Position numbers and translations under genes: made by a program. Shown here one piece after another: positions 12,201 through 52,464 of a stretch of DNA of 64,000 bases; position 1 is the stretch's first letter, and every line of letters begins with the position of its first letter. Origin of the DNA: Amoebophrya sp. A120 (Eukaryota > Protista > Dinoflagellata); assembly GCA_905178155.1 (NCBI GenBank), contig CAJINV010000001.1, forward strand, positions 15,190,142 to 15,254,141. Direction: 5' to 3'. The notes under the pieces were generated by a model. The model made no database searches. It had not been told where the DNA came from and saw only the letters and a list, made by a program, of their open reading frames with translations.

Positions 12201-14607
12201 GAAAAAACAGTCGATCCGGCAGGAAATTCAGAACAAGGAGGAAGAGCGATTTATGCTGGAGAACTACGCGGTCGAGCTATCAAAAGGAAAAATCCCCCCT
12301 CCCCATATCAAAACGGAATTTCTGATGCTGGATTTGTGTACACAAATCAGCTCTGTATTGCAGAGAAGCGCTGCGGCCAGATCCCCAGGCTAGGTAGCAG
12401 GGACGTTTGGGGCTAGTTGTTCAGCATGGCAAACGGCTCCCCTTTAGTCCCAAGAGCATGACAAATCGCTTCCATAATGGCGCGAAAGCTTCTGCCCTTG
12501 TCTTCTTGCAACAGAAATGTGATTTGTGGCCTCAAATCAGCATCGCAAATTTTCGGAAGCATACCTTGTTGATATGGGGAGGGGGGATTTTTCCTCACGA
12601 TACGAGCAGAATAGCACGCGCAAGAAGGCGCTGGACCAGGAAGTGGATATCTTGCGCACGCTGGAGAAAAACCTCCAGGTAGAAAGAAAAACGCTGCAGG
12701 AGAAACTCGCAAGCCTGTTGGAAGAAAGGCGTGAACAGAACGAGAGAACGACGACGGCAAGAAAGGACGAAAAGGATGATGGAAAAGCAGTCGCTGGCGC
12801 CGAAGAAGCGGGGAAAAAAGAGAGTTTGGAAGGTATTAGGTGTTAGAGTGCAAGAGCAGCTCCATCAACTTCGAACCATGCGTAGATTCTAAACTACTGC
12901 ACTTCGTCTTCGCAATGGCATCCATTGGTTTTGGTTTCAGTACAGGTCGTTCGATTATCCATGTTTTGCCTGCGCACGCCGACATGCAAATGCAATTTCA
13001 AAATGTGATGAACGAACCACACTCATAAACAGCTCCGCCGGAGGACGCAGGGAAAAAGCTGCAGCTTCCGCTCGGCGTGAGCACGAACTCCAGTGCAATA
13101 CCGCCGGAACATCAAACAAAGGGCCCTTCCTTTCTCCCGCCCAATCGGATCACCACGACATCCGGCGGCAGTAGCACGACGCAGTCGACGGCACCGGAGC
13201 AAGTATATCAGAACAACAACTTGGAGGAAGTCCTCCGGCAGCCCACCGTCGCTTGGTCAGACCTGATGGAGCTCCGCGCGCTCATCCGCCAATACGAACA
13301 GTGCTTGGAGCATATTGAGGGGAAAAATCCCCCCTCCCCATATTGAAAAGGTATGTTTCCGAAAATTTGCGTTGCTGATTTGTGACCACAAATCAGGTTT
13401 GTCTTGCAAAAAGACAAGTGCAAAGACATCCGCCCAATTGTGAAGCGATTTGGCATGCTGTTGGTTCTAGGGGGTAGCCATTTGCAATGCTGAACAACTA
13501 GACCTGAGCGCTCCCACCTAGGCTGCGGATCTGGCCGGAGTGCCTTACTGCAAGACAAATCGGATTTGTGTACGCAAATCAGCAGCAGAAGTTCCCACTT
13601 TGATACGGGAAGGGGGGATTTTTCCTTTTGATAGAGCAGGAGAAACGGGACGAGGACTTGTTGCGGCAGCAGAACGACCACCTGATTTTCCAGCTGCAGG
13701 AGATCTACTCAACTACGAACTTGCAGCAAAACATGAGCGAGCAGATATCCTGAGTAAAAACGTACCCACACCAGAGTCAGGATGGGGATTTTGCAACACA
13801 AACCTAGGAGTTTTGGGAGTCACGCATGACAAGTTGCACTCCGCAGTGTAGTGCAGGTTAGCATGTGCAACCGCGTCACAGATTCATCTGCTCATCCTGT
13901 TCACAGCATCACAAATCCCAAAACACGATTGGAAATGGCTTTCATGCGGATGCGCATTACAAGTCTTCCTGTCTTGGCAAATCTGCATTACAACCCTGGT
14001 GTGGGTACGTTTTTACTCAGGATAGCAGACGCAGCTGGAGTACATCCGGAACGTGTTTCGGCAGTTTCTGGATTTGGACGAGAACGGCTCCATATGCATT
14101 GCAAATATGTCTGGGTCTGGAAGAATGCAAGTTTGTCATGCTTGCCTGGCATGACTCATAAATCTGTAATGCATCAGCAGGAAAACGAAAAGGGCCTCTT
14201 GCCTGTCATGCAAAAACGCAGTTTGCCATGCGGAAAACGACACACAGTAGCAGTTGAAAAAATTGTCATGCTTCGCTGCCGATTGCAGTCCCCCCACCAG
14301 TCACATTTTAGCATCACAAGTTTCCAGACCCAGACACATTTGCATTTGATACTCCAGTTCGCTGTACCAAAACCTCACGTCTTCCCTCGGCGGGTCGCGG
14401 AGTAGCTCCGCGGGAACCCTGCAGAAGCTCGCGGAAGAACACGAGCAGTGCATCCCGGTTCTGTTGAAGTTCCTGGAGTTTGATCTTGTCGAGCAGGAAC
14501 AAATCCGGCAAAAACGCGCAAAGAAAGCCGAGAGTTCCTACTACCAGAACGCTGCGAACGAGACGGCAAAAATGATTACCAATTTACGCGGATGGCTCAG
14601 GTTTTGA
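9297..14607 (+). CDS. GRIP-domain golgin-like long coiled-coil protein, multi-exon, with five introners
   Basis: Long E/K/Q coiled-coil ORF pieces. After removing the elements at 13313, 13746 and 14093 the C-terminus reads QLEYIRNVFRQFL...EHEQCIPVLLKFLEFDLVEQEQIR...LRGWLRF*, matching the GRIP pattern (EYLKNVLLQFL...LLPVI..LL.F). Confidence 0.8.
9657..9918. mobile_element. Introner family B (262 bp, DR AAGCC)
   Basis: TIR TATCAAATGTGAAAGTGTCTGGGTCTGGAAGA / TCTTCCAGACCCAGACATTTTTACATTTGATA; DR 9652-9656 and 9919-9923; restores L-Q-A-S-L-D-E. Confidence 0.94.
12278..12602. mobile_element. Introner family C (325 bp, DR CGAGC), orientation 1
   Basis: TIR TATCAAAAGGAAAAATCCCCCCTCCCCATATCAA / TTGATATGGGGAGGGGGGATTTTTCCTCACGATA; DR 12273-12277 and 12603-12607; restores A-V-E-Q-N-S-T. 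Confidence 0.94.
13313..13633. mobile_element. Introner family C (321 bp, DR GAGCA), orientation 2
   Basis: Same TIR type; internal sequence is the reverse complement of the 12278 copy; DR 13308-13312 and 13634-13638; restores C-L-E-Q-E-K-R. Confidence 0.93.
13746..14024. mobile_element. Introner family A, copy 2 (279 bp, DR GCAGA)
   Basis: Perfect 29-bp TIR TATCCTGAGTAAAAACGTACCCACACCAG; DR 13741-13745 and 14025-14029; restores M-S-E-Q-T-Q-L-E-Y-I-R. Confidence 0.95.
14093..14351. mobile_element. Introner family B, divergent copy (259 bp, DR CTCCA)
   Basis: TATGCATTGCAAATATGTCTGGGTCTGGAA / TTCCAGACCCAGACACATTTGCATTTGATA; DR 14088-14092 and 14352-14356; restores N-G-S-S-S-L-Y. Confidence 0.9.
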
Positions 14608-15347
14608 TTCAATCGAAACGATATGAGTATAAAGCGAAAATAATGAGTACAACTTCAAAGCGCGAACTTGTTGGATGGCCACCGTCCTCTCGACGTCGTT
14701 CTCAGCGATGGATGGCAGTGATGTGTGTGATATGCAAACAGTGTTCGACAATGACAAATAAAACTCCACAGGAAGTTCTGAAGATCGTGGAAGATTCTGG
14801 ATTCGAATATCCGTTCGGTTTTCCTTGTCGGAGCTTTGATTGTGAAGAACGATGAGGAGAGCAACATATCGGTAATAAACTTTTGTTTGATCATCGTCGC
14901 AGGGTGGGGCACGCATTTTTTGGGTCGTGAAACTTACCGAACCAAATTTTTGTCGTCGTCCGTGAAGAACCTCGCATGTTAAGGTCATGGGAGGCCGGTA
15001 CCTGTGTTTGCGCACTGAATGAATCAATACTTACTCCAGGACCACAAGTTTGTCAATCTTTTCGATTTCCCGCTGAGAAATTATCGGTTTAAGCCTTTTC
15101 GATTTCAGCATCGGTTCGTGGGTGTTCCCTTGATGCGCATAACTTTTCACTTTGTTCTGTCATTTGTGAAATATGAAGTACCTTGTGCACGATCTCATTT
15201 CGTTTTTTGAAGTGAAGTGCCGTCACCTCACAACGGCTACCTCTACGTACAACCTTGTCGGCTGTGTATATCGGCCGTATTTCCACCGCAACTTTTGTGG
15301 CAAAGAGGTAGAACCAGGAAGAGACTAATAAGCCTCGAAAGAAGAAG

Positions 15348-16824
15348 ATGGGATTCGACGAGAGGTTTCCCACGCTGAGAAACTGGCCCGCCACCGACCC
15401 GGCGTTTTTGGAGGGCGTGCACGACCAATACAAAGCGCACTTTCCGGAGTACAGTATTGACACCCCGCCAACGGAGGAGAACATCCGCGAAGCCAGCTTC
15501 CGGGACCTGCTCGCGGTCTGCTTCGGGCGAAGCATACAGACCGTCAAAGATCAGCAGTTTGCGGACAAAACATGGGAAATGGCAATGCAGGACTTGGTGC
15601 GGAAGTGGAGAGTAAACAGGTACTTAATTGCGTTGTTTCGATACAGTTCTACTTCTACCTTAGTCGAGTGCAATCGGTTGCGCTGCGATTGAAGGTGCAT
15701 GAGAAAAAATCATCAAACCGGTTGCTTCAATACGAAGTATGACATCAAGTGTCCCTTTCACAACTCTTCAGGGGTTCTATCAACATCAACGACCGCATTG
15801 GGGGAATCCCCTACCTGCACTTGATCTGCAAAGTCGGGCAGTGCCGGTACCGTGCCCACCCGGGCCAGGATCCGCGCCCCATGAACCAGATCCCGACCCG
15901 CAACCTCTTACTGGAAACCATCCTGAAGGAAGCCAAGGACCTGAACGTCAACGCCGTCGACTTCCGGGGTCACTCCGCCCTGAACTACTGCTACAGTTAC
16001 ACCTTTGAGGTGACAAACGTTCCGGAAATCGGGCCAGACGGGCAGAGAAGGAACAAGTGCGCGTACGCCGTGTCCATCCACTGGGCCTCGGTCCGCATGC
16101 TGCTGGCCCGCGAGGAGTGGGTTGCGCTCGATTTCCCGGTCCCCGGCGGACAGTTTGGGAACATGCAGTTGTTGCATTTGCTGAAGCGCAGCTACTTGCT
16201 GTTCCAGGAGGAAAATCACAAGCAGTTCCCGGCCAAGGTGCACCACGATTTGCTGCAGACAATAAACAAGTGCGGCGCTGAGGTGGAGCTCGCGCGGACG
16301 CTGCGGTTTTGGCCCATGCAGGAGAAGCTGCAGAAAGACAACACAAAATACGATTGCACGCTGCTCACCCGCACAATCAGCAAACGCTGGGGCGACGGGT
16401 TGATGCTGTTTTTGAACGAACCCGCAACCGAGGAGGTAGTGGAAAACATCTGGAGACATCCGGCGTTTGATAGGTACAGAACAACGTACTTGATAGATTG
16501 TACTTACAGTTACAAGGCGCAAGAAAAGACAGGGATGTTATGATTTCTGTAGTGGTACCCGTACCGGTATGATGGAAAAATAGCGGTATGACAGTATGAA
16601 GATCGAGGGAAAAAGAACATCAAAATTTCCGCATTCACAACAGAATGGGTTTTCTGGACGAAATCTGTCTGGTCGAAGGCAACAACGTGCGAAGATGGCG
16701 TGACATCGACGTCAATTCTATGTACCTCGTGGACAAGTTCAACTGCACAAAGAAGGCCTGGTACTACGTGATGCATGCGATTCAGTTCCAGAAGGGCGCA
16801 GAGCTGAAGGATCAGCTGGTATAG
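15348..16824 (+). CDS. Ankyrin-repeat-like hypothetical protein, about 3 exons
   Basis: ININDRIGGIPYLHLIC and DLNVNAVDFRGHSALNYC resemble ankyrin repeats; GT-AG introns near 15620-15771 and 16537-16643; the 3' end is uncertain. Confidence 0.55.
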
Positions 16825-16887
16825 TTTTTTTTGACGGAATAGGAAGCTTTATTCCGAGACTTTGAAGCACAACAAGAATGTGAACGG

Positions 16888-16934
16888 CTCCCGCATTTGG
16901 TCGAATATTACTAATATTCGACCAAATGCGGGAG
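16888..16934. repeat. Perfect 23-bp inverted repeat with a 1-nt spacer
   Basis: CTCCCGCATTTGGTCGAATATTA-C-TAATATTCGACCAAATGCGGGAG read directly. Confidence 0.95.
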
Positions 16935-17587
16935 AGATAGGGAGATAGGGAGAGTCCCCCTAAAAGGGGGCAACAAAAACAAAACCAAATTGATCGCAAA
17001 CAGCACGGTACGGCCACGACAACATCTTTCGAAATCTGGGGCGGAAATGCTTCCGAAATCTGATGAGGGAAAGTTGAAATGGTCATTGCAATTTTCCTTC
17101 GATGAGGGAAAGTTGAAGCGGCCATTTCAAATATCCTTCGATGGGGGAAAGTTGCAGTGGCCATTTCGATTTTCCTTCGATGAGGGAAAGTTGAAGCGGC
17201 CATTCTAAATTTCCTTCGATGAGGGAAAGTTGAAGCGGCCACTTCAAATATCCCCCCATGAGGGAGAGCTGCAGTGGGCATCTCGATTTTCCTTCGATGA
17301 GGGAAAGTCGAAGTGGCCACTTGCGTTTCAAATTTCCTCTGATGAGTCAACGGGCGCGCGGTGCTCGTTTGCCTTCGAATCGATGCAACGCCATTGGCTG
17401 CGTATGGGGTGAGTGAATGCGCGCGCGCAGCGCGCGCGCAAAATTTTTTTGGTTCTACGGCTTACCAAAACGGAGCATACCGTCGTGATTCAAGGGGATG
17501 AGGTTTACTACGGCTCTCCCTATCGACCTATTCTCCCTATTCCGCTCTCCCTATTCCCTCGATTCACTACAGTCGTATATATATTAG
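16911..17587. mobile_element. Possible non-autonomous TIR element (MITE-like) carrying a minisatellite
   Basis: Ends CTAATAT.../...ATATTAG, each flanked by TTA; subterminal ATAGGGAGA motifs on the left face TCTCCCTAT x3 on the right. Confidence 0.4.
17062..17348. repeat. 39-bp tandem repeat, about 7 units, each with an internal hairpin
   Basis: GATGAGGGAAAG-like cores start at 17062, 17101, 17140, 17179, 17218, 17257 and 17296; consensus TTTTCCTTCGATGAGGGAAAGTTGAAGCGGCCATTTCAA. Confidence 0.92.
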
Positions 17588-17755
17588 TTATGTGTTTGTT
17601 CATCAGTTTCAGTTTACTCACGCCCACACGGCACCTCATGTCAGATCCTTGGCGTTGAATGAGAGCACCTCCGCGAAGTTGTAGAGAAAAAGATTTTCTG
17701 TGCAAAAACTACTACTTATTCATCACACCAGGCGGCCCAGGGCAACACCGTTTCC

Positions 17756-18664
17756 ATGCAGGTGGGTGGGAAGCAGCCCCAGCTCCCGGGGGTGCAGAAG
17801 CAGGTGGTGAAGGTCGGAAAGAACGCGTTTGTCGCCCCGGCGGAACCCTCGAGTCCCATCCACAGCACGCCGCCGCGTTCCAGCGGGAGGACGTTACGAC
17901 GAATTTCCGTGTCCCCCGATTTGTCCAAGGCGCTGGCGCAGGAGGTGGCCAAGATCAACTCCCCAAAAATCCCGAACTTTGAGGAATTGGATAAGAAAAA
18001 AGCGGCGAAAGAACAGCAGTTTGCGTCCACGCCAAAGCCAGAAGTAGTGAACAAGAAGGTCGTGTTGAGCAAGGCAAAGGAAGCCAGTAAGGAGAAGAAG
18101 CCGGCACCAGCATCAAAGGAGAAGGCTGACGAAAAAGATTTGTTTAAGGAGGATCCCGCTGACGACACGAAACCCGCTCCGAAGGCAATGAAGGCAGCGC
18201 CAGCGATGAAAAAGGCAGAGAAGGAAGTTAAGAAGGTAATGAGCAAAAAAGACGAGCAAGCCATGAAGAAATCGCCACCACCAATGGCTGCTGCAAAAGG
18301 GGGCAGTAAAAAGGACAAAGCAGCACCGGCAGCCGCAAAGAAGTCACCACCAGCAATGAAGATGAGCATGAAAAAGATGCAGAAAGCTCATGCTGAGGCG
18401 AAGGCAAGTCCGAAAATGGCATCATCCCCAAAAATGGCATCATCTCCGAAAATGGCATCATCGCCAAAAATGGCCTCATCACCCAAGATGGCAGCCATGA
18501 AAAAGGAAGCAAAAAAGGAGAAAGCTTCCAGCATGAAGAAAGCCGCCGCGGCACCAGCGAAGGCGAAGCCAAAGATGAGCAGCATGAGCATGAAGAAAGC
18601 CGGCGCGACTGCATCTTCCTCACCAAAAATGGGGGTGAAAAAGACCGCCATGAAGAAGAAGTGA
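17756..18664 (+). CDS. Lys/Ala/Met/Ser/Pro-rich basic protein, histone-H1-tail-like
   Basis: 302-aa ORF with (MASSPK)x4 at 18416-18487, many AMKK and SPK motifs, ending KKTAMKKK; the true start may lie in an upstream exon. Confidence 0.7.
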   Translation: MQVGGKQPQLPGVQKQVVKVGKNAFVAPAEPSSPIHSTPPRSSGRTLRRISVSPDLSKALAQEVAKINSPKIPNFEELDKKKAAKEQQFASTPKPEVVNKKVVLSKAKEASKEKKPAPASKEKADEKDLFKEDPADDTKPAPKAMKAAPAMKKAEKEVKKVMSKKDEQAMKKSPPPMAAAKGGSKKDKAAPAAAKKSPPAMKMSMKKMQKAHAEAKASPKMASSPKMASSPKMASSPKMASSPKMAAMKKEAKKEKASSMKKAAAAPAKAKPKMSSMSMKKAGATASSSPKMGVKKTAMKKK

Positions 18665-19079
18665 ATTCTGCTGCAACAGTTTTCTACAAAATAAATCTTG
18701 AGAATACAGGGCAACGGGTTCTTGTAGATGTGCATTTGTTGATGTAGTAGTCTACTACAACCGTGTCGTCGTGTAAAAAAATATCATACTTCTTTTGTAC
18801 CTGTAACATAAGGTCTGGTGATGTCACCGTAATAAACAAATAAAACGATAACGTGCCGCATAATGTGATTAAACTTTAACAGTATACTATCAACGTGTCA
18901 TGCAACGTCGCATTCGCAGTGACAGTGTATACGATTTTCTTATCATAGCTACCCACACAGAAATTTGCACCACTTGCGCTACACTTCCGTACATACAAGG
19001 TCGAGGTGATTCGTCGTCTCCAGAGTGGTCCCAAATGCGAATGTCTGAAATTGATTCTACCTCCCTTCCTCAACGCAAA

Positions 19080-25733: not shown

Positions 25734-26448
25734 GCGAAGATTATGGCAGTAGGAGTAGCCGTTTTATCATCTTGTTCTGCTGCTGCGAGGTGATTTTGCG
25801 CGGTCGCGGTGTGTCCCGGATGCGCTAGACCTCTTGCGTATGAAAAAGTGGATATCGCTGCGCCGGGGCTTTGGTTTTGGTCTTCCATAGGTTTCTCGGC
25901 TTAGCTCGCCGCTTACAGTGCACTTCAAACATGTTGGCTCTACTTCTGCGCAGTGTCGCCCTTCCAAGAATTAAGTAGAATCTGTACAGGCATAGATTCA
26001 TTTGTCCAAGCGCCTGGTCATTGCTGCATCTGTGACGATGCTCGTTTCTACTTTTTGTGTTTTCCCCGAGGGCATAATTGGCAAACAGCGGCTTGATTTT
26101 TGCAAATCGTGACTCCGTCGCTTGTGGTACGAGAGAGAAGAAGCACCCATGAGCGCTGCAATCATCCAAAAGAAGCAAATTTTTTCGTTTATCGCCGTGA
26201 TCGCGAATCGTTGTGCACGATTTCAAATGGAATACATCGCAGGTCCCATTCGTTTCGAAGACTTCTCAGGTTGCTGAATACAATTTTTTCGCCCTCGTGT
26301 CCCCCGTTGAAAGACATCTATGATCTGCTTTTTTTTGCATGCGCGAGTTTTTCTTTAATTGTCCATGTCGGCGCCGAGCCTTGTTGTAGTTCACATTCAG
26401 CACTTTTCACTACGGCACCGCTGAGCAGAGCCTTTTCACTACGGCAAG

Positions 26449-29400
26449 ATGATGATCACCGGGCCGTCTCGTGCCGAAACCGCGGCAACTTTGCGTCGAC
26501 GGTATGACGCTTTGCGTATTGTTGCTGGAATTTTTCTGCTCTCCGTTGTCGCCGCAGGTGCCTGGATATTGTACGATTGGTTTGAGAACAGGCACTTTCC
26601 ATTTTGGACCGCGATATTTGGTGGCGGGCCGAGCGAAAACACGGAAAAGAAGGAGAGGCTTTCCACATCAACTACGTCGACTTCTAGTTCCTCCAACATG
26701 AACGGTCGTTACACTGTCCAGGAAAAAACACCCATCCACATCCAATTTGTCATGCAAAACATACATAAAATCCTGTGTTTGTCATGCAAAAAATGGATGT
26801 GGATGGGTTTTTTTCTGTGGATATACACGCTGGACGATCCCCGCGCGGCGAAATTTGAAACGGAATTCGCGAAACGCGGAATGCAGTTCTTTGACGTGTA
26901 CAGTGACGTCATTGACTCGCGCTACGCGGAAGTGTATTGGACGGAGCAGGGGAATTTGCCCTTGCCGAGGGTAATCCAGGACAAGTTCGAGAACGGAAAA
27001 ACGATCGCGATCACGGGGTACGAGCATGACCAAGTGTTTGCGAGTGATCTCAGCGTGTCTGTGCCCTTCTCCTGGGTCTACAACCACCATTACGTCGTAT
27101 ATGTGACAACGGGGAAGATGGAGTACAAACTTGCGGCGAGGTCCGATGTGCGAAAGTGGGCTATGAGGAAACACGGGGATGAAAATTCAGGTTCTCGGAG
27201 CAGTACTGCTGCTACCGAGCTTTCGAAAAATCAGCATTTGGACCTGCACCACATGGGTGTGGGCATGCGGGACTGGAACAAAACGCACGTGAGACTTTGG
27301 GTGCCGGTCGATAGCAGTCCCAAGAAGAAAGAACGTGAAAATTTTTATCCAAGCGACGACTCGACGACTATTCCGCGCTCGCAGTTTATTTCCGAGGCAA
27401 ATGGCGGGGAGAGCCGCAAGAGCCTGCACAGCTATCCAAAGGGCTTAGCGCAACTAGTGTACTCACCGAAGTTCTGGCACGTGACGCCGATGCAGGTCGA
27501 CAGCCGGAACCGGAAGTGCGGGTTGGATCCGAGCACGGTCGGAAAGCCCTGTGCGACACTCGGTCCGGAGCCAAGGCAAGCGAGGTACGGAAGAGAGATG
27601 AAAAACGCCAATGTGTCTGCACTGGTGGAGTGCCCGTGCACCGACCGGTTCGGCGGCGACCCGCTGATTTACGGGGAGGCAGTGAAGACGAAGTCCTTCC
27701 GCAAGCAGTTTGTGGTGGAGAACTGTGGAGCCGCAAGTACAACAGCTACGACCGCGAAAGCTGCGCAATGCTTCGAAGCGGCGGCAAACTTGGTTCACCT
27801 GGATTCGTCGCGAAAACCTGTGATCGTAAGAAATACGACCGTGCCAGCGGACAGTGCGGAACGCGCACCAGCCGGATGCTCTGTTCGATTTGTCGACACT
27901 CCTGCAAGAAAGCAGGAGCGGCCAGCAGCTGGCGCCACACGATCGCGGCGTGCAGAAGAGGACACGTCGTCGGTAGAGATCCTCTTTCGCGAAGCAGCAG
28001 CTGACTCACTCCAAACATCGAAAGATATCAAAAACTCTGTTGCAAAAAAGTGTACCACGGCCGCCAAGAAGCTAGGGAGTGTGTCTTTTGACGGCATTGG
28101 TGTGTCTACCGAGATATCTGTCAACGAAACGCACGTGGAAATGAGGCTGCAAGGACCCGCGACTGTTTGGTTCGGCGTGGCATTTGACGCGGTGCTGATG
28201 GCTGACCAGCCTTACACCATCCTCGTTTTGCCGAGGGGCTCGACGTCACCAACCGGGGCCAGCTCCTCACAAATGGTTCCACCAACAGAAGCGGACGTTG
28301 TTGAACAGCAGATTGGCACGTGCGGCGAAGAGGCGCAACATTGTCCCGGGGACAGGCTGAAGATACAGTCTTTGACGAAACTAGAGGACCGAGTTGTCGA
28401 AATTAACCCAGATGATTTTTACGTAAGTGAAAATACAGGACCGAGTGCACGAACTTCTTCTGGTGCCGCACCGCAGTTCATGCGCATAGTGCGCGTGGTG
28501 CGGAAGCTGATCGGCGCTAGTCCGAAACACTACACCTTCAATGCCGGCACCATCAATCTGATGGCGGCGATCGGCCGGTCGCCGAAATTCGCCCATCACA
28601 AGGGCCACCGACGAAAGCAGGTCGCACTGTTTGACAGGAGCGCTGACGCGTTCAACTGCGTCTGCGTTGATTTGAAAACGCCAGGCCTTCTGTGCGATTC
28701 CAACGGCCTGAATTGCGAGTCCTTCGTGAAAAACTGTGCGCCGGATTGTGCAAAGACGGACATTTTCCACACAAAGGAGCACCACTGCGGCGACCTGGTT
28801 TGGCAAGAGAACCCGACCTATCAAATGGAAAAATGTCTGGGTCTGGAAACTTGTGATGCTGTGCGGCGTATCATGAGGAGGCCACAATTGCTGGCTCAGC
28901 ATGACAAGTTTCTGAGCTGCTAGGTGTTGCCTATTCTGCATGAGAAACTACCTTTCTGCATGACAGAAAAGTGGGGCTCTTTGGTAATGTGCATGACAGA
29001 TTTAAGAGTCATGCCAGACAAGCATGACAAACTTGCATTCTTCCAGACCCAGACATTTTTACATTTGATACGACCTGCGCCAGTCTGAGTTATGTGGGGG
29101 GTCTTCAGTGTTGCCGACACGGATCGACGTTGCTGGACCAGGGGCAGAAGATGGACCCGCCAGACGTGCTGCAGTATCGGGTCAAGTTCCGGTTCTGGTA
29201 CGAGGAATACAACGAAGGTGGGCGTACTGTCAACACGCAAGACAGAAAGAACGCAGCTCAAAGCCCGACGAAGGTCCGCCCTCCATCGCACCTGAATCTC
29301 GATCGACTGTACTACCAGACCGAGGGTTTCGCTGGTGAGTACGATGTGCCGCCGGCGTTCCGGCTCCCGACCGAAACTCAGCCTCTGGTTGGATTTCCCG

Positions 29401-30167
29401 ACTTGAAGGTTGGGGATGTGTCGAAGGGCACAAAATGCACTTGTGGGCGGGAAACAAGCACGGACCGACGTTGGGAGTTTTCTTCTGGGGCGAAAATAGA
29501 GCCGCTGAGTCTGCTGCCCTCATGCCACTGTGTCCACGCTTTGGAGTATCGGTTTCTGTTCTATCGGAAGGCGATGAGAAGTTCAACCCTGGATGGGTTG
29601 TTCGAAGAGATAACTGGCGCAGTCTCTTTGTCAGAGTCGACTGTCCGTAGCCCGCTGAAAGTTTCCAAGGGGAGCAGTGGCGCCGTTGCAAGAAGCGAGG
29701 CTGTGAATGTGTTGCCCGGATTGACGAGATTGGCCCACGGTGCGGCGTCGATGAATGATCAAAGCACCACCGCACTTTCACACACGGGAAAAAAACCCGG
29801 TGTGTACCTCATTTGGGCGAACGGGCACTGCCACGCACCTTCGTGTCTTTCTATGGAGCTTTTTCGCAACGACACTGGGGAGCTGTTGTGTAAACAAACG
29901 CCACGGGATGCGGCGTCGGAAGCAGGAAGCAAATTCGGGGAGCCGGGATACATCTACACGCCGCCGTGCATTTTTGCCGCTCCGGGCGGACCAGACGAAA
30001 CCGTCTTGCCGCGTGCGCCTCTCATTCCTGACGGCGTTCCGCTATTGAGCGTGAAGAAAAACAAAAACACGGATGTGGGCCATCTCGGCGAGATGGCCTC
30101 GTGGCAAATGCGTGCGGTCGGGGAGGAAAAAGTCACTTCACTAGCCGAACAGGCATCAAGAATATAG
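26449..30167 (+). CDS. SURNod19-like (copper-monooxygenase-like) membrane-anchored protein with a DOMON-like insert; two introners
   Basis: N-terminal TM. SVPFSWVYNHHYVVY, NGGESRKS, YVGGLQCC and YLIWANGHCH...GELLCKQTP...EPGYI parallel SURNod19 motifs; VWFGVAFDAVLMADQPY is DOMON-like. The two ORFs join once 28819-29070 is removed. Confidence 0.65.
26715..26823. mobile_element. Miniature introner family D (109 bp, DR TACAC)
   Basis: About 30-bp TIR TGTCCAGGAAAAAACACCCATCCACATCCA / TGGATGTGGATGGGTTTTTTTCTGTGGATA; DR 26710-26714 and 26824-26828; internal TTGTCATGCAAAA x2; restores G-R-Y-T-L-D-D. Confidence 0.85.
28819..29070. mobile_element. Introner family B (252 bp, DR CGACC)
   Basis: 30-bp TIR with one mismatch; DR 28814-28818 and 29071-29075; restores N-P-T-C-A-S-L-S-Y-V-G-G-L-Q-C-C; near reverse complement of 51812-52063. 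Confidence 0.95.
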
Positions 30168-30583
30168 AATACCGGACGACAGAAGTGGCCGGGATGCGCG
30201 TTTAGATTGGTTCACTGAGTACACTACCTAGTGGTCTCTACCGTTTTTTCTTTGTTCACCGGGAAGGTTCTCAAGTACACCAACTTCTAGTTCATCCGGC
30301 GCCGGTGTTCCCACATTATCTCAGTTCTTGTCTTTTTTTTCGAATTCGATCGTCCAGTCTGAGTTGGAGAGGGACGTGCGACTGAAAAACTGCAAGAGCG
30401 ACCGCTCGCAACAAAAAATGTCTTTTCTTTCATGGGCAGAAGATAGCTTCGAGGATGTCAAGATGACAGCAATAAACCTTGCACAGCGCTGTTTGTAGTT
30501 TGGTAAGGATGTAATTTTTTGGTTGATTGACTTTCAGAAAAACCAAACAGAGTCATAGCTACAGGCTGAGAGCCTAGACATCG

Positions 30584-35993: not shown

Positions 35994-36448
35994 CTCAGCA
36001 GACACGTCTGTTTCACCGGAGGACCTCCGCTTTTTTATATGGGATCAACCTCAGCGCATTTTGTATTACGGTAACTAGCCCCAACGGAGTGTAGAGTCCA
36101 CAAGAGGTGGATTCTATCCCCTTCAGGTCAAACCTAGCAGATTCTTAAATTCGAAAAGTAGACGAGAAAAACCCTCTCAATTCCAAAAGAGTAAATTAGC
36201 AGATTTAGATTTCACTTTCAAAAGACTCACGGTCAGCGCGTGGTCCAGTCGTCTCAGAGGACCAAAGAGTCCTTCGTTAAAGCAGAAAAATTTCACTTTT
36301 AATACACTGTTCGTGTTGGACACCATCAGGGTCCAGGAAAGTTTCTCGAGACTTATTTTTCGATCCTTTGTTTTTTAAACGGACGCAGCTACGCACTGAG
36401 GCTCCTGTACTGAGTTTTATTTTCCGGGTTGATAACGGTCGTAAGTAC

Positions 36449-42506: not shown

Positions 42507-45500
42507 ATGGGAGGCGGGAATAACAATCGCGGCAACAACAAAGGGGGCGGCGGAGGACAGCACGGTAAAAACAGCGGCAGCAGTAGCAAAAACAACAATC
42601 AGCGGAACAAAAAGAAGGCCGACGACCAGACGACGCGCCCGGTCGCTTTCGACAAACGCAACTCTTCTTCCGCGCTAGAAAATGACCCTGACACTAACAG
42701 CAAGCTCCAGCCGATCGAGTGCCCGGTGTGCTGCGACACCGCGGTGTGCGCGGCCATCGGCGTGGAGTGCGGACACTGGGCGTGCTTCAAGTGCCAACTG
42801 CGGATCCGCGATCTGGCGCAGTCAAAGGAGACAAAACGGAAGTGCCCGATGTGCAAGACCACGAACAACAAACTGGTTTTCACCCAGCGCCCGGACTACT
42901 TCTTGCAAAACATCAAGAACGACAACACGAACCGCTTCTACACGGAGGTGTGCCACATCAAATTTGACGAGTGGGGGCACGGTTTCGACAAGGAGAACAA
43001 AGCCTTGATGCAAAGAGCCGTGGAGGATTTGTATTTGTACAAATGTTGGACCTGCGCGCCCCCACAGCCGGCTTTTCAGACCCTCTGGGACCTGACCAAG
43101 CACATGGAAAAGCAGCACAGTCGCTACTTTTGCCGAACCTGCTTGGATGGTCGGGAGATTTTTCTGGAGGAGCAGATGTGCTACGCAACGAAAGACGAGT
43201 TGGATTTGCACCACCGCGTCGGCGATTCCGGGCTTGTCCCGATCAAACCGCACGCGGACTGTCAGTTCTGCAAGAAGTCGTTTTTCACGCACCAGGAGCT
43301 GTACCAGCATATGATTGTGGAGCACATCACATGTTTTTTGTGCTTCGAAGCGCACCGGGAGAACCGGTTTTTCAAGGACATGACCTGCTTATTCAACCAC
43401 TTTCTCGCGGAGCACCACGTCTGCCGCTACGAACGGTGCATGCGGGAAGGGATATTTTCCCAGGAGACCGTGTTCGCGCACGAGGCACAGCTGGCGCAGC
43501 ACCGCATCGCGGTGCACAAGAACCACAACGGACCAACGAAGGAGGAATGCTACCGGCCGAAGCTGGATATCACGGTAATTTTGTTAGATCTTTATTGCCG
43601 GCATGATAGTCTTAGTTCTTCCTAGAGAATCAGAACTTGTGTAAAGACTTCTACTACATCAACAAAGCGCCTGATCGTCATAAAATTCTACACGATCATA
43701 TGAATCGAAAAACAGGTTACCTCCACGCTGAACGGCTTGTCACACGCCCAAATCAACGATAAGGAGACGATGGCGGCCATGCCGCAGCAAGACAAGCCCA
43801 TCTACTTCACACACATTCACAACCCCGAGCGACCTCCGAAAGAAGTGATTCTCCCGCCGTTGCCCAAGAAGGAGGTCGTCGACCGATATCCGGATCTCGG
43901 CTATGGAATGAGTTGGAAGGACTTTGATGCCGCAAAGCACCGGAAAAAAGCACAGGAAAGGAAGAAGAAGACTGCAACTACCGGAGGGGGCGTGCATCAA
44001 AACGGAGCTCCAGGGTCTCCGGAGCAGCACGTCTACGATCCAAATGCGCCTGAAGATGGCAAGGAACAAGAAGGAAATGTCAAGAACGGCGCGAGCACGC
44101 CCGAACAGCACCCCGTTGATAGCGGCGACGCCGGCAGCCCAGCAGAGGACAGCGAAGACGACCAGCGGACCTTCTTGCGCGCCAACGAGTACGAGGCAGA
44201 GCAGCAACAGAAAATGGTAAAAGCGCTGCCCGCGGATTTGCTCGACCTTCCTCCCTCCGTCCGGATGGACACGCAACTCCAGAAAAGCAGCTTCTTGCAC
44301 GCAATTGATGCCGTTCTGGAGTGCAGCGTGGGAAGCGTTACGAAGTGCAAAGTGGAATTGATGAAAGAGTCCGTGAAGCAGCAAGCCGACGGCGGTGCGG
44401 CCGGACGGGTGGACATTCCCGGCATGAAAAAACACATTGCGATGCTCAGCCCGCTGGCGTTGGACTCGTTGTCCGAGATGCGCGCGTTTCTGCTGCAGAC
44501 TTGGGATTCGAGGTTCAACACCGAGTTGATCACGGGGCTCCGGCCGTTATTCTTCCGCACTCTGAGAAATGAAGACCACAAGGGCACGCCCGCGCATTGG
44601 TTGACCTGGAAGTACCAGGCGCACAACGCTCTGGGGAAGCTGCGGGCCATATCAAAAGGAAAAATCCCCCCTTCCCATATCGAAAACGGAATTTGTGTTG
44701 CTGTATTTGAGTACACAAATCACATTTGTGTTGCAGTAAAGGACTGCACGCAGATCGTAAGCCTAAGGGGGGCCCTTGCTTTGGTGTAGGGCCTAGCATG
44801 GCAGACGTCTGCCCTATAGGCCTTCCAGCATTACAAATCGCCTGCATATCGTGGCAGACTCTCTGAGTTTGCCCTCTTGCAAGAGAGACAGGATTTGTGG
44901 TCGCAAATCAGCATCACAAATTTTTAGAAACATGCCTTTTCAGTATGGGGAGGGGGGATTTTTCCTTACGATAGGCCAACGAGCGGGAATTGATCCGCTT
45001 GTACGTGGGGTTCTGCCTGGAGCGGAACGTTACCAGCTACGCCGGCCTCGACCGCGCGAAGGAGTATTTGTTTTGAGATGTTTAAGAGCTGTATTTAGTT
45101 TTTCAGTCTGTCGCGCACAAGGCTTCTTCCTACGTTTGTGATGACGAGTGTGACGTCGACGTCAATGAATGTGTTTTCGAAATCAAACTTGCATCGCTCT
45201 CTTCAAACCCAACACAGGTATCCCTCCCTCGAGCAGTCCGCGGTGTCTGCTGCGGCCAAGGACGCGGACGCGTTCAACCCAGAGCTTGCTTTCCGCCCGG
45301 AGCGACGGGGGGTCGCGGGCACACAGTGGCAGGGCCGCAACGGCGGGTTTAACGCCATGGGCTCGCAGGATTTTCCGGCGCTGGCGGAGACAAGGACGGT
45401 CGATGAGGACGGAACGCCGCTGCTAGAATTGACCATGGCGGAGAAACTGAAACTGCAGGAGCAGAAGGAAAAGATGAAGAAAACCGCCAAGGCACCGTCC

Positions 45501-46695: not shown

Positions 46696-47627
46696 AGGAA
46701 GTGCTAGCTTTTTGCCTGTGGAGCTGTATCATCTACGCAGATTCATCTCATATAGAAGCTGCGTAGTACGGAATTTCCACTTCGCAAGTTGGAGCTCTCA
46801 ATCCCGGTTGTCTGTGAACTGCGCATCGGAATTCGCTTTTTGGGAGATAATTTCCTAGTTTCTCCTTCTCTTTTCACTGGTACGGGTACGTACTCGAGTT
46901 TTTCAAGCGACAAGTATTTTAGTTTGTTAGCGACCGCATACAATCGGACAACGACAAGCGACAATTGCGAACGAAAAAAGCGTGCGAACGGCGCTCTTAC
47001 AAAATGCTTGATTAGATTCGGGTGTTCATCACAAACTTCTACTTTTTTTCGGACATGAGAGAATCGCGTGCACTATCGCCTTGTTTCCCGACCGGAGTTG
47101 GCTTTGCGTATAGATACGTCGTCTGCGAGTTGTTGATTGTTGCGCATCGAGATAAACAGTTCAAACTCGTTCATTCGTTGATGTCTTCGTTCGCCACGAG
47201 AAAGCGCTATCGATTCGAAGTCTTAGATATGAAGCAGCGGTAGGCGCGAAACTCAAAGCAGTCGAGAGGACTACAACCAGTCAAAATTATCGAAATCATG
47301 GTGCACCCCGCTCCTCTTGGCAGAAAGGAAATATAGAAAAAATTATTTTTTTTGACTCCCCGCGATCCGGTCGCAACTGGGGTCGGACGGGGAAAGTTCA
47401 AATCTTGTCCACTGTTGCTCGTCCATCCGCTACGACAGCAGCAGTAGTGGAAACTAGCGCGGGGTGCCAGCACAGTAGAGGAAAAGCAGAAACACGAGCA
47501 AACTCATTGCCGGTGTAGAGGGAAACGGAAAGCGTCCGGGCCTTCTTACTCTGTTGCCCCTACAGAGACCTTCGTTGCCGGGCCTCTCGTTTGTTCTTTG
47601 CACAAGAACCTAGTACCGCGACACACG

Positions 47628-50606
47628 ATGAAGAAGTTTGTGGAGAGACGGCTTGCGCGCGAGCGCGTGCTCGAGAAGGAGCAAATTGCACTGCGGAAAC
47701 AGGTGAAGGACATCGAACTTATGAAGTGCCACGGGGAGGCCGATTTCCGGGTCGAGGTCGCAAGAAGAGCACGAGAAACAAATGAACAGAAGGCCGAGGT
47801 ACAGGAATAGAGCCTGCTTTTGAAGATCGTGTTTTTATTGACTATGCGCGGTCGGAAAAGACTTCTCCTGACGCATGGAAGTAAAACTAAAGAACAACGA
47901 TAAATAATTCACTGTACAACTATAAAAAATCCAGGTTTCCACCGAGTATGCCCACGTGCAGGCACAGCAGGTTGCAACGCGAAAAGCCATCGTTAGCAAA
48001 ATGGAAACTGATCTCGCGATCGAGCTGGAGCGGAGGAAAGCACAAGCAGTTATTGAAAGGAAAAACTCCCCCTCCCCATATCGAAAAGGAATGTTTCCGA
48101 AAATTTGTGTTGCTGATTTGAGGCCACAAATCACATTTGTCTTGCAAGGAGACAAGGGCAAAAGCTTCGCCCCCATTATGGAAGCGATTTGTCATGCTGT
48201 TGTGCCTAAAGGGCAGCCGTTTCCCATGCTGAGCAACTAGATTGATACGCCCCTACATAGCCTGAAGATCTGGCCGCAGTGCCTTCCTGCAATACAGAGC
48301 TGATTTGTGTACACAAGTCCAGCATCAGAAATTTCGTTTTGATATGGGGAGGGGGGATTTTTCCTTTCGATAGCTGTTCGCGAGGAACAGGATCGCATCA
48401 GGATGTACGACGGTACACGACGATTGCTTCGGCTTTTTTTGTGTTAGGTTTCTGGTGGAAGCACGTTATCGAGCATGCAGCAGGCTGTATGTCGGTCATG
48501 ATTTGCACATCATTTTGGAAAAAATAGAAATGTCGTGTTTAGTTGTGTCGGGCTCAGAATTTTCTAAACCCGGCCAATCTATCAATCAATGCAGGTAGTG
48601 AGGAACTGCGACAAATCAAGACGAAGTTGCACCAAGCGCAAGTGAACAAGGAAAGGCATCAACAGCTCGTGGAGCAGCTCCTCAGAAAAGAGCAAGAGAA
48701 GCAAGAGGTACGCTTGCGTTTGTTGCGTCACACGGTACAGCCTTTGGTTTTCGGCCGACACTGAGCAGTAAAGCCAAGAGAAATATTCATGGATAATCAA
48801 CGAAAAATGAAACTAAAACAGGAAGAAGAAATTTCGCAGCGGATGGAGTATGATCGAAGGGAAGCAATCGAGAAGAAGATCGCGGACGAAATACACAAGT
48901 CTCAGCAAAGAGGTAAGGCTTTGTAGGCACGGTGGTTTTATTTTCTTGCGCCCATGTGCTGTGGTTTTACGCTCAAAGAAATGATCCGCTCCTCCTGCCC
49001 TTGCGTTGCTTTCTGGGGGGCACTGGGGCAGTGGAGGTATCACACACGACTGACGCTGCTTTTTTCAAGCGCATCTACCACCCACAACTCCAGGTAAAGT
49101 GACCGCAATAAATCAGCAGCAGATCATATTGCGAGAAGAGGCAAAGGGCTTGTCAAAAATCCAAGCCGAGAAGGAGAGACAACAGGTAGACATAACGCGT
49201 TTTCGCGTATACTAAGTTAATTCGAACGCACATCGTAAGAAAGTACCGAACAGATGAAGCAGTGAAGGTGCATAATCTGAATAAAAATCAGCTTGAAAAG
49301 TAATCTCCGAATCAATACTGCTGTTGTAGGTTGAAGCAATAGTGGAGCAGATCGCAAAAGAAGACGCTTTGGAAGCCGCCACAAGAAAGAGGAAACAGGA
49401 GGAAACCCAAGTCATGCTGCGGGCCTTCATGATTGAGCAGCAAGAGCGCCAACGAAAAATGGAGCAGGTATAATCACTCAATTGCTGCTGTTGAATGTGC
49501 ACGAGCAAACTGCTGCAAGGTATTCCAAGAAAAGATAGATTGCTTACTAAGTGCAACTTGTTCATGTTCCACCTGGACCTGTGTTGTTTCTCTGGAGAAC
49601 GGTCCGACTGGAACACAAAAAACAGGACGAGCTCGACGAGATGGCCGCTATCGAAGCGTTCGCGAAAAAGAAGCGTGCTTTGGAGGAGGCCCAAGAGGAG
49701 GAGAAGCGCAAGGCAGAGGAGGCGAAAAAAGCCGCTTACGAGCTCATCGTCGCGACCGCCGAAGCAAGAAACAAGGAGGCGGAAGAATTCGAATTCCTCA
49801 AGAACGAGCTGTAAGCTGCTTTTACTTCTTGTTGGAACGTTCCAGGTTCGTTGGTTGTCGTGAGGCCTGGTTCGAATTTCCTTTGGAGAATTAGATCTTT
49901 TCTTGAGAACAAATTTGCGCGTTGATGTTCACAAAACCGCAGGTACGCAGAGGAGCTCGAGGCCCAACAGCGACGGAAGGAGGAACTGGGTATGCGCAAA
50001 AAGCTCGAGGACCGCGCGGAAATGTTGAAGGCATACGAGGATCAGCTGCGTTTGAAGGAGGAGCGCCGGGTCCGCGAGGAGCGCGAGGAGGCGGTGTTCC
50101 GGGAGAAGCTGCTGCACAAATTCGCGGAGGACGACAGAATAGAACAGTTGAACGCACAGAAAAAGCGCATGAAGGTCCAGGAGCACAAGCGGGAAGTCGA
50201 GAGGCTACTGCAGGTAAGTATGTTGAGGGGTGCTGGCTTAGTACAACCTACAACTTCGCATGGCGATACGTGTACTTCAGTTGCTGCAGCATCTTGTTTT
50301 GCTTCGCCTTTTTGTGCTGAGCACGTGGACGTGGTAGCACGAGTCCCCTGCCATGTCATGCGCTACGTTTTATTTCTTCGTGAAAAACAGGAACGGCGCG
50401 CTCAGTACCAGGCGGAGCGGGATGCCGAGCTGCTGGAGCTGGAGGAGCAGCGCCGGGTGCAGAAGGAGCGCTACGTGGAGATCGAGGAGGAGAAGAAGCG
50501 GCTGCTCCGCGAGCATTGCGTCCAGTTTCGCGACTACCTGCCGAAGGGCATGTTCCAAAACCGCGAAGACTACGACTACGTCATGGCCCAGCCCGAGCCC
50601 AACTAA
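47628..50606 (+). CDS. MNS1: MNS1 (TPH-domain ciliary microtubule inner protein), multi-exon; one introner
   Basis: EELRQIKTKLHQAQVNKER, FREKLLHKFAEDDRIEQLNAQKKRMKVQEHKREVERL and EEEKKRLLREH...YLPKG match MNS1 signature blocks; the start is uncertain. Confidence 0.88.
48051..48372. mobile_element. Introner family C (322 bp, imperfect DR GCAGT/GCTGT), orientation 2
   Basis: TIR TATTGAAAGGAAAAACTCCCCCTCCCCATATC / GATATGGGGAGGGGGGATTTTTCCTTTCGATA; restores K-A-Q-A-V-R-E-E. Confidence 0.92.
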
Positions 50607-51452
50607 AAAGAAGTCCTGTGCGGTGTTCGCGGAAAAATTAAGCGAAATAATTCCTAAACTTTTATCAGACATCCAAAGCATCAAAAGTTTTAATTCTATC
50701 ATCAGACAAATCAGACAAAAAGTTGCAGTTGTCGGCAGAACAACTGCACGAAATAAAGGGAGGGGAAACAGCAGCACGACCTCCCACGGTTTCAATTTTC
50801 TTTACCTTTCTTTACACATCAGACTAAACGCAGACAAACTTGTTACGATTTGAAACTACAAACAGACCAAACAGATTATCATTTGAACTCGTGTTGAAGT
50901 AAAGCAGATATAGATTTAGCAGACCAGAAATTGTTCCTGCTGCTCGTTGGGTTCAGTTCTTGCTTCTTTCTTCTGCCAGAGTTGGCTGGCAGTTCGCCTG
51001 TACTCGCTACAAGCAGCAGTATGGAAAAAGCTGAAGAGACGTTTTGAATGTTTGCACTAGCGCCGGACTCATTCTTGCGCGAAATGGACGGAACAAAATG
51101 AACAGAACAACAGTAGATGCGGACACAAAACAACAAGTGCAGAACTTGTTCAGCTTTTGCGCGGTGTTTCATTATCTTGAATTTGGTGAAGCGCTAACAA
51201 AGTATGAAAAAAAGACGAAGCGCACTCCACCCGGTTTCTGGGTCAGAGGTGTCCCACCTCTGACAGGTACAACAGGAAAATCCTTTGCTTTCTTTGTGTT
51301 CCCCCACCTCGCTGCGCGTGGGACCATAAGCGCGCTTTAAGTACACTATGCATGGCTCAATGCTTTTTCACCGTCGCGTGAAGAAGGTCGCGCGGCCAGA
51401 TCTGAGGACAGCACTCAAGTCATGAACTAGGAGTCGAACATCAGTGTGCAAG

Positions 51453-52464
51453 ATGGCGTCTGAGGAGGCTGCGGAGGAAATTGCAGAAGAGGCCAGCGAA
51501 GAGTCCTCAGCAAACGTCCCGGAGCTGGATCTTTCACATTGTGGCGTCAAGCAAAGGGTCCGCGACATCCAAGCCGACATTAACGCCGAAGTGCTATCAG
51601 CTCGACAGGAGATAATTGTATTTGATGCTTTGATGAAGATGAAGTAAGTAGGTGTCGGCTCGAACGAAAACGATTATTCGCTCATATCTATCAAGCCAAA
51701 AGCTGACTTCTCTGTAAGTAAATGATTTTCGAATGCCAAAACCACTTCAACAGCGCCTCGAGCTGAAAAAGGGGACGCGAGTGAACGAGGAAGTTGCCAA
51801 GGAGGAGAAGCTATCAAATGTAAAAATGTCTGGGTATGGAAGAATGCAAGTTTGTCATGCTTGTCTGGCATGACTCTTCTATCTGTCATGCACCTTATCA
51901 AAGAGCCCCGCTTTTCTGTCATGCAGACACGTAGTTTGTCATGCAGAATAGGCAACACCTAGAAGCTCAGAAACTTGTCATGCTGAGCCAGCAATTGTCG
52001 CCTCCTCATGATACGCCACACAGCATCACAAGTTTCCAGACCCAGACATTTTTACATTTGATAGAAGCAATTCAAAGAGGGCGTGACAGCAGCCGTGAAG
52101 GGGACGCAGCGTGTTATCCTCAAAGACCTGCGCCGATTCGAGGATTCGATACAACCGGTGAAGCGGCTGCAACATGCGGAGAACGTATGACGGCAGAAGT
52201 TGCGAATTTCGTTGAATCATGCTCGCACCAGTTGTGCGTACTAACTCGCAGCAGCGATACATAGATGAATCACCGAAACAAGATCTGCAAGAGCCACTTA
52301 GCCTCAGAAAGGCAAATGCTTTCTGTAGTGACAAAAAAAACTAAAATCAGATGCGGATATTGAAGCAGACCACCCAGATCCGGCAAGACACGAAGGCGCT
52401 GCGGAAGATGCTTCGCAATTTGGACAAGCGGCTGCAGAAAATGGAAAACGAATTGGAGTTCTAA
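51453..52464 (+). CDS. Small coiled-coil hypothetical protein, multi-exon; one introner
   Basis: MASEEAAEEI... exon; EEKQFKEGV after introner removal; last exon ...LDKRLQKMENELEF*. Confidence 0.6.
51812..52063. mobile_element. Introner family B (252 bp, DR GAAGC), opposite orientation to the 28819 copy
   Basis: 30-bp TIR with one mismatch; DR 51807-51811 and 52064-52068; restores E-E-K-Q-F-K. Confidence 0.95.

What the first reader, a model, noticed from the sequence alone, without database searches (positions are those of the whole stretch)
12278..52063. Orientation-independent introns without GT-AG ends
Family B copies 28819-29070 and 51812-52063 (both 252 bp) are near reverse complements. 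Family C copies 12278 and 44650 are inverted relative to 13313 and 48051. All host genes are on the + strand. Sliding the junction through the DR gives canonical ends for only 1 of 12. Internal strand-specific signals such as a branch point therefore cannot be fixed, which favours definition by the symmetric ends or by the roughly 30-bp terminal stem.
Basis: partly seen in the sequence, partly recalled or inferred. Interest (0 to 1): 0.8.

Follow-up and report, generated by a model that had tools for sequence, protein, structure and literature searches.

The report
Transposon introns spliced either way round
Small hairpin-shaped mobile elements in genes of the marine parasite Amoebophrya A120, already published as unusual introns, sit in both orientations and one opposite-facing pair is missing from the same transcript, likely because the cell reads their mirror-image ends rather than the usual splice signals.

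Summary
The window is Amoebophrya sp. A120 (two public proteins 100% identical), and the elements are its published introner elements (Farhat 2021): TAT...ATA ends, about 30-bp inverted arms, an exact 5-bp target duplication (TSD). One RNA contig lacks both C copies 12278 and 13313, which face opposite ways. Removing element plus one TSD restores the coding frame in 171 of 252 testable copies (window plus a related assembly; other cut lengths 30-35). All 12 larger families occur in both orientations with no overall bias (p=0.67). GT-AG by sliding is at chance (8 of 129, 6.4 expected). Best reading: end-defined splicing, probably by a retuned major spliceosome; a Euglena-like cut-and-join machine is a close rival. 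A twelfth copy (26715, TGT start) stays in the RNA in frame. I found no report of orientation independence for A120 in eight searches; it is known for Polarella and Aureococcus introners. The scan noted similar hairpin introns in other genomes (unchecked). No RNA evidence for 51812, 44650, 48051.

The parts
944..1222 (.). Family A element, 279 bp, TSD TGGAT
   Evidence: frame restored on + by element plus one TSD; no RNA test
1287..1539 (.). Family B (subfamily B1/B2) element, 253 bp, TSD CCCGA
   Evidence: no RNA test
9657..9918 (.). Family B (B1/B2) element, 262 bp, TSD AAGCC
   Evidence: removed in public protein P0004
12278..12602 (-). Family C element C1, 325 bp, TSD CGAGC; opposite orientation to 13313 and 48051
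   Evidence: absent from RNA contig 3 of run X1; removed in P0004
13313..13633 (+). Family C element C2, 321 bp, TSD GAGCA
   Evidence: RNA contig 3 leaves the genome exactly at its TSD and runs on for 409 nt; removed in P0004
13746..14024 (.). Family A element, 279 bp, TSD GCAGA
   Evidence: removed in P0004; RNA contig length fits removal (indirect)
14093..14351 (.). Family B-related element, 259 bp, TSD CTCCA
   Evidence: stops in host frame if kept; removed in P0004
26715..26823 (.). Family D element, 109 bp, TSD TACAC, starts TGT instead of TAT; kept in the RNA as 38 extra codons
   Evidence: RNA contig 5 runs through it without gap; in frame; present in P0001, absent from two homologues
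28819..29070 (-). Family B element B4, 252 bp, TSD CGACC; reverse complement of 51812-52063
   Evidence: RNA contig 5 leaves the genome at 28813, the base before the TSD; P0001 equals the model with element plus one TSD removed; two homologues are continuous at the site
44650..44973 (-). Family C element C3, 324 bp, TSD GGCCA; the only copy with a GC-AG register
   Evidence: no RNA test
48051..48372 (+). Family C element C4, 322 bp, imperfect TSD GCAGT/GCTGT, which marks the cut side
   Evidence: frame test undecided; no RNA test
51812..52063 (+). Family B element B5, 252 bp, TSD GAAGC
   Evidence: frame restored on +; no RNA test
9297..14607 (+). Host gene for 9657, 12278, 13313, 13746, 14093 (1178-aa protein P0004), also with a GT-AG intron at 12833-13032
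26449..30167 (+). Host gene for 26715 and 28819 (1153-aa protein P0001)

Best explanation
These are the published introner elements of Amoebophrya A120: MITE-like insertions with about 30-bp inverted ends and a 5-bp target duplication that sit in exons in both orientations, are missing from the RNA where tested, and are likely recognised by their symmetric ends and likely cut out by a retuned major spliceosome. Shown: anatomy, both orientations, exact loss of element plus 5 nt in RNA for one opposite-facing pair, no GT-AG above chance, no target-site consensus. Inferred: DNA-level insertion by an unidentified transposase; splicing of the untested copies (from reading frames); the arms pair in the pre-mRNA and set both cuts by distance. 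Proposed and untested: the intron starts one base before TAT, so the arm supplies U(+2) and A(+3) of a donor like the host's GTA donors in either orientation, the +1 base is free, and the 3' cut falls four bases past the element, measured from a branch point or stem inside the 3' arm.
For: Identity with A120: P0001 and P0004 100%; end motif TAT + 7 + A-run as in PMC7789003. RNA: contig 3 skips C1 and leaves at the TSD of C2. Frame: 171 of 252 versus 30, 35, 33 for other cut lengths. Orientation: 12 of 12 families with 6 or more strand-called copies have both, chi-square 9.4, df 12, p=0.67, n=209. GT-AG 8 of 129, expected 6.4; TSD composition flat, p 0.41-0.82. Terminal stems predicted in both senses, z -2.9 to -13.2 for the 11 copies. 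Substitutions that keep pairing as G-U in the sense RNA outnumber A-C types in the arms, 95 to 65, p=0.022. For the spliceosome: A120 keeps 83 of 89 searched spliceosomal proteins, has no detected minor spliceosome, U1 snRNA not found (PMC7789003); tunicate precedent (PMC11282704, PMC13326754); no change at the first base of the 5' arm in 159 copies against 4 at the mirror base of the 3' arm, and 6 changes at the third base.
Against: Nothing here shows a lariat, a branch point or the cut position. Neither junction has a conserved dinucleotide under most registers, which is hard for the spliceosomal active site (general knowledge). AG is not enriched at the predicted 3' position (16 versus 13.7 +/- 3.4). 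The arm asymmetry is not significant (positions 1-2: 1 versus 5, p=0.22) and one copy starting TTT still needs removal. The G-U excess is not significant against the interior control (Fisher p=0.073) nor in raw mismatch counts (236 versus 210, p=0.24). A branch point in the 3' arm would be buried in the stem. RNA support is contigs of one run at depth 6.8 for the C pair; the 95%-identical B pair has RNA support for one member only. One family is skewed 12:3 in the strict set (p=0.035 uncorrected). The related assembly has no RNA data.
Confidence: 0.52

Rival explanations
1. Same elements and same end definition, but removal is spliceosome-independent: a nuclease recognises the base of the terminal stem, cuts each side at fixed distances totalling 5 nt, and a ligase joins the exons, as suspected for Euglena nonconventional introns.
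For: No junction consensus at all; strong stem in both senses; conserved paired motif at fixed distance from the cuts, as in Euglena (PMC12501133 abstract); mild G-U excess in the arms; no orientation bias, unlike Polarella classes, which were all biased (bioRxiv 2020.10.14.339549).
Against: Copies with a mismatch at the stem base still need exact removal of element plus 5 nt, so the ruler is not simply the last base pair; the retained copy 26715 keeps a predicted terminal stem in the sense strand (pair probabilities 0.86-1.0 for the first five pairs); no candidate enzyme was sought or found.
Confidence: 0.36
2. The elements are removed through nearby cryptic GT/GC-AG sites by an ordinary spliceosome, or only one orientation is spliced and the other copies are dead insertions.
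For: One window copy has a GC-AG register; 8 of 129 have GT-AG; 81 of 252 copies did not pass the frame test.
Against: RNA contig edges fall exactly at the TSD for C1, C2 and B4; cut lengths other than element plus 5 do not restore frames; homologues gain or lose no residue at B4; both orientations pass the frame test in 11 of 11 strict families.
Confidence: 0.04
3. The elements are excised from DNA (like ciliate IESs, which are also TA-bounded; recalled) in the cells that transcribe, so RNA lacks them without any splicing.
For: TA-containing inverted ends and precise loss of one TSD copy are what DNA excision can leave (general knowledge).
Against: DNA contigs of run X6 run from unique exon sequence 25-34 nt into the elements at depth 40-44, the same as unique DNA; contigs drop rare variants and 556 joints were not shown, so a minor excised DNA form is not excluded.
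Confidence: 0.04

Closest known systems
Introner elements among the non-canonical introns of Amoebophrya sp. A120 (Farhat et al. 2021, PMC7789003)
   Same: Same strain by protein identity; TAT start, A-run after seven bases, inverted ends, 3-5 nt direct repeats over the junctions, hairpin, no transposase inside; public gene models already remove six of these copies.
   Different: Not different in kind. Added here: the TSD is exactly 5 bp flush with the ends; families occur in both orientations without bias; arms are about 30 bp, longer than the 8-20 nt motif described; the same families occur in a second, related assembly, whereas the paper called families strain-specific between A25 and A120.
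Introner-like elements of Polarella glacialis and Aureococcus anophagefferens (Roy et al., bioRxiv 2020.10.14.339549; Aureococcus only as cited there)
   Same: TIR/TSD DNA-transposon origin; several classes create introns in either orientation.
   Different: Those carry or recruit GT/GC/GA and AG sites and show orientation bias; here no splice dinucleotide is needed and no overall bias is seen.
Euglena nonconventional introns (PMC12501133; review PMC11282704)
   Same: No GT-AG, paired ends, TSD-like repeats at junctions, suspected MITE origin, coexistence with GT-AG introns.
   Different: Signature N3CDG...CHGN5-6|R is absent; A120 has TAT...ATA and no purine preference at any TSD position; circular excised RNA is shown there and untested here.
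Fritillaria borealis MITE-derived non-canonical introns (review PMC11282704; PMC13326754)
   Same: TIR and TSD, most introns non-GT-AG, conserved U2-type snRNA machinery.
   Different: Those have dominant AG-AC/AG-AT ends and are reported as spliceosomal; here there is no dominant end pair.

Membership tests
Amoebophrya A120 introner elements | Occur in strain A120 | tested here: met
   P0001 and P0004, named A120 by the tool, are 100% identical to window gene models
Amoebophrya A120 introner elements | Ends other than GT-AG | tested here: met
   0 of 11 GT-AG, 1 of 11 GC-AG; 8 of 129 in the wider set, chance level
Amoebophrya A120 introner elements | Terminal inverted repeat starting TAT, seven variable bases, then three or more A | tested here: met
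   A at positions 11-13 in 536, 556, 576 of 602 ends (TAT itself was a search condition)
Amoebophrya A120 introner elements | Direct repeat of 3-5 nt overlapping the junctions | tested here: met
   exact 5-bp repeat in 261 of 301 (filter asked for 4 or more); 211 of 345 arm pairs with no TSD filter
Amoebophrya A120 introner elements | Removed from RNA | tested here: met
   shown for 12278, 13313 and, one side only, 28819; not met for 26715; untested for 944, 1287, 9657, 44650, 48051, 51812; indirect for 13746, 14093
MITE (non-autonomous TIR DNA transposon) | Short, repeated, TIR, fixed-length TSD | tested here: met
   element bins of DNA run X6 are thousands of times deeper than unique DNA (rough)
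MITE (non-autonomous TIR DNA transposon) | Empty site in relatives | tested here: met
   at protein level for 28819 and 26715 in two homologues
MITE (non-autonomous TIR DNA transposon) | Cognate autonomous element with a transposase and the same ends | tested here: inconclusive
   eight candidates over 400 bp in the related loci, five inspected, none with an evident transposase ORF by eye; 0 hits in viral contigs; no whole genome held
U2-type spliceosomal intron | GT/GC-AG ends | tested here: not met
U2-type spliceosomal intron | Branch point, lariat, dependence on U2/SF3b | not testable with these tools
   YTRAY at the 3' end of 101 of 253 copies is a motif only
Euglena nonconventional intron | N3CDG / CHGN5-6|R signature | tested here: not met
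   ends read TAT...ATA; TSD positions show no base preference
Euglena nonconventional intron | Excised as full-length circular RNA | not testable with these tools
   only contigs of this strain's RNA were available
Ciliate-type IES (DNA excision) | Absent from the expressed DNA | tested here: not met
   DNA contigs enter the elements at full depth

The most novel reading that the evidence does not exclude
A120 removes tens of thousands of mRNA introns with a spliceosome-independent, orientation-blind nuclease and ligase that read only the terminal arms of a transposon family, making any insertion at any target sequence nearly free; this would be a second origin of such a pathway, independent of Euglena.
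Probability: 0.33. Interest if true: 0.85.

Novelty: already known. Interest (0 to 1): 0.4.

Why it matters
The elements are published, but how they are spliced is an open question. Orientation independence, a free target sequence and an exact 5-nt overhang confine the splicing signal to about 30 nt at each end and turn the question into sharp tests: map branch points and cut sites in both orientations, and read copies whose two TSD halves differ. If the ends alone suffice, a transposon can insert anywhere in an exon at almost no cost, which would explain the scale of the invasion, and a short self-defining cassette of this kind would be a useful probe of splice-site recognition.

Tried and rejected
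36064-36556 (5-bp repeat TTTTG) and 5207-5982 were considered as further elements: the first has no terminal stem in the sense strand (z -0.5), the second is coding sequence with a 4/5 repeat; both dropped. RNA runs X9 and X10 do not cover the exons (100 and 3 reads, all on element ends) and were not used. TSD-mismatch copies were tried as markers of the cut register: 34 with a strand call, 20 with a frame, 11 of 20 synonymous, codon scores flat across registers: no verdict. The idea that G is avoided before TAT (0 of 12 in the window) failed in the larger set (34 of 129). AG enrichment at the predicted 3' site failed. The idea that the TGT start alone explains retention of 26715 is open: for it, a 108-nt, 90%-identical copy with TAT in the same sense must be removed (L066, score 8.1 versus 1.6 or less); against it, a TTT-starting copy must also be removed (L014) and a TAT-starting D copy is stop-free in its host frame (L017). 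No match to the arm pattern in viral contigs. No autonomous element recognised. The predominance of NT-NN ends in Table S4 of PMC7789003 fits the proposed register but may be an aligner preference, so it was not counted. Huff 2016 could not be read.
Full report
Observation. Self-comparison of the window finds three repeat families and a fourth single copy. Eleven elements begin TAT, end ATA, carry inverted arms of about 30 bp and are flanked flush by a 5-bp direct repeat, exact in 10 of 11; 100 shuffles of the window in 3-base blocks give a mean of 0.01 such hits. The pair 28819-29070 / 51812-52063 is 94.8% identical in opposite sense and 62.3% in the same sense; C copies 12278 and 44650 face one way and 13313 and 48051 the other. 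The interiors are clearly directional (self-identity to the reverse complement 52-61%), so orientation is well defined. Sliding the junction gives no GT-AG and one GC-AG (44650) on the + strand. A twelfth copy, 26715-26823, starts TGT.

Identity. Two window ORF pieces retrieve proteins named Amoebophrya sp. A120 at 100% identity. P0001 equals the window model with 28819-29070 plus one repeat removed. P0004 maps exon by exon and omits 9657, 12278, 13313, 13746 and 14093 in the same way. Farhat et al. 2021 (PMC7789003; I read the abstract, sections 10, 11, 12, 16, 32, word searches, and parts 1-3 of 5 of the supplement; figures S19-S25 are not visible) describe A120 introner elements with inverted repeats starting TAT, seven variable bases and an A-run, direct repeats of 3-5 nt, hairpins, 65% non-canonical introns, most spliceosomal proteins present and U1 snRNA undetected. 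These are those elements.

RNA. Of four runs laid on 9400-29300, X1 behaves as RNA of this strain: it skips GT-AG introns (12833-13032, 15620-15771) and has almost no depth over 19360-25999. Its contig 3 (1319 nt, depth 6.8) matches 11868-12272 and 13031-13307 with 228 nt between; the model that removes C1 plus one repeat predicts exactly these record positions, whereas keeping C1 needs 558 nt. The second piece ends at the base before the repeat of C2 and the contig runs on for 409 nt, so two opposite-facing C copies are missing from one transcript, whose frame is open throughout. Contig 5 (depth 170) ends its match at 28813, the base before the repeat of B4; its onward piece was not among the rows shown. 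X6 is DNA and enters the elements at normal depth. X9 and X10 do not cover the exons. There is no RNA evidence for 944, 1287, 9657, 44650, 48051 or 51812, so the 95%-identical B pair is tested on one member only.

Wider sample. Its elements are at most about 88% identical to the window's over full length and no non-element DNA matched. They add 290 elements; the repeat is exactly 5 bp in 261 of 301, and in 211 of 345 arm pairs taken without a repeat filter, which include cross-pairings of neighbours. With a codon model trained on 15 window ORFs, removing element plus 5 nt leaves coding signal on both sides in 171 of 252 copies with 100 nt of flank, against 30, 35 and 33 for removing 0, 4 or 6 extra bases. 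The test is partly circular for the window's 11 copies (10 pass, 48051 undecided) but not for the rest. Locus-level and junction-level strand calls agree in 151 and conflict in 4 of 298; the others lack one or both calls. Against host strand, all 12 families with six or more called copies contain both orientations (32:28, 9:16, 8:15, 14:7, 8:7, 8:6, 6:7, 8:4, 4:3, 4:3, 3:3, 2:4; chi-square 9.4, df 12, p=0.67); the strict set (11 families, 119 copies) gives p=0.17 with one family at 12:3. A GT-AG register exists in 8 of 129 strict copies, 6.4 expected from shuffled repeats, and no repeat position shows a base preference. These copies are introns by inference only.

What orientation independence does and does not prove. 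Opposite-facing copies share 25-30 of their last 30 sense-strand bases and 25-28 of their first 30, but only 10-12 of the next 30 at the 3' end. Signals deeper than about 30 nt cannot be fixed; signals inside the arm can.

Sequence or stem. Terminal stems are predicted in both senses. Private substitutions in paired arm positions favour G-U over A-C types in the sense RNA, 95 to 65 (p=0.022), interiors 501 to 470; the contrast is p=0.073 and raw mismatches show nothing (236 to 210): weak support for pairing at RNA level. Among 159 copies that must be removed, the 5' arm is changed at positions 1, 2, 3 in 0, 1, 6 copies and the 3' arm in 4, 1, 3 (not significant), so the terminal triplets are not strictly required and the ruler is not just the last base pair. 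The copy at 26715 is kept in RNA contig 5, adds 38 codons to P0001 and is absent from two homologues. A 108-nt relative with intact TAT in the same sense must be removed (L066), but a TTT-starting copy must be removed too (L014) and another D copy is stop-free in frame (L017), so the cause of retention is open; contigs also hide a minor spliced form.

Mechanism. Insertion by a cut-and-paste or related transposase making 5-bp staggered cuts is inferred from the arms, the fixed repeat and the empty sites; no autonomous element was recognised. PMC12130899 (passages) reports an A120 family with inverted ends and integrase-like coding, which I did not test. For removal I favour a retuned major spliceosome (about 0.5): if the intron begins one base before TAT, the arm supplies U at +2 and A at +3 in either orientation, like the host's donors (the two RNA-supported GT-AG introns start GTA, as do eight read by eye in 47800-50220), and the tolerated third-base changes fall on the variable +4. 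This register is a hypothesis: AG is not enriched at the matching 3' position (16 versus 13.7) and repeat-mismatch copies gave no verdict. A stem-reading nuclease and ligase as suspected in Euglena (PMC12501133, abstract and passages; PMC11282704, section 6) is nearly as likely (about 0.35). Cryptic canonical sites and DNA excision are unlikely.

Novelty. The system is published. On orientation: in PMC7789003 the word occurs four times in the text and three in the supplement, always for genes; PMC12130899 required same-orientation similarity, PMC9860276 allowed for opposite orientation in its method (passages); the Polarella preprint reports classes that make introns in either orientation, with bias and with GT/GC/GA-AG sites, and cites the same for Aureococcus (passages). 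Eight searches showed no report for Amoebophrya; subscription papers, the figures of PMC7789003 and the datasets of the two Gozashti papers were not seen and may contain it. PMC13326754 (passages) and PMC13149111 (word search, no hits) do not mention Amoebophrya. Earlier scan notes describe similar hairpin introns in other genomes (unchecked, not counted as support). Verdict: real, already known in kind, with a modest new constraint on an unsolved splicing mechanism.

Noticed in passing
window 26715-26823: Family D copy starting TGT is kept in the RNA contig and adds 38 residues to the host protein: an exonised introner.
   Followed up: partly
window 16888-17555: Multi-copy insert (DNA depth about four times unique) with a perfect 23-bp-arm palindrome at 16888-16934, a 39-bp tandem array of 6.6 copies at 17062-17319 and inverted GATAGGGAGA-type repeats near both ends; lies in a stretch largely skipped by RNA contig 4, so probably another mobile element inside an intron.
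   Followed up: no
window 9885-9918, run X9: About 95 raw RNA reads of a run that does not cover this window's exons match the family B arm and continue into one other flank: the same arm occurs, unspliced, in a transcript of another sample.
   Followed up: no
L001-L137: A second assembly carries families A, B, C and D at up to about 88-90% identity, at different sites; the families are not confined to A120.
   Followed up: partly
window 18873-25733: A 2286-codon open frame with no Pfam hit, no element inserted and almost no RNA contig depth beyond its first few hundred bases in run X1.
   Followed up: no
window 47800-52350: GT-AG introns read by eye start GTA and mostly end in A/C-rich tails rather than pyrimidine tracts, so even the host's ordinary 3' sites look atypical.
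   Followed up: no
all families, e.g. window 51812-52063: A subterminal motif like TGTCATGC recurs two to five times per element across families, mostly on one strand; possible transposase-binding repeat.
   Followed up: no
related loci with 4/5 TSD: 11 of 20 differences between the two TSD copies are synonymous, more than a free intronic copy would suggest; may mean both copies are constrained or the cut varies. Small sample.
   Followed up: partly
L080:1185-2229, L074:3096-3834, L064:765-1461, L021:3862-4492, L034:3001-3972: Longer arm-bounded stretches with exact 5-bp repeats and unrelated interiors; possible larger or nested elements.
   Followed up: partly
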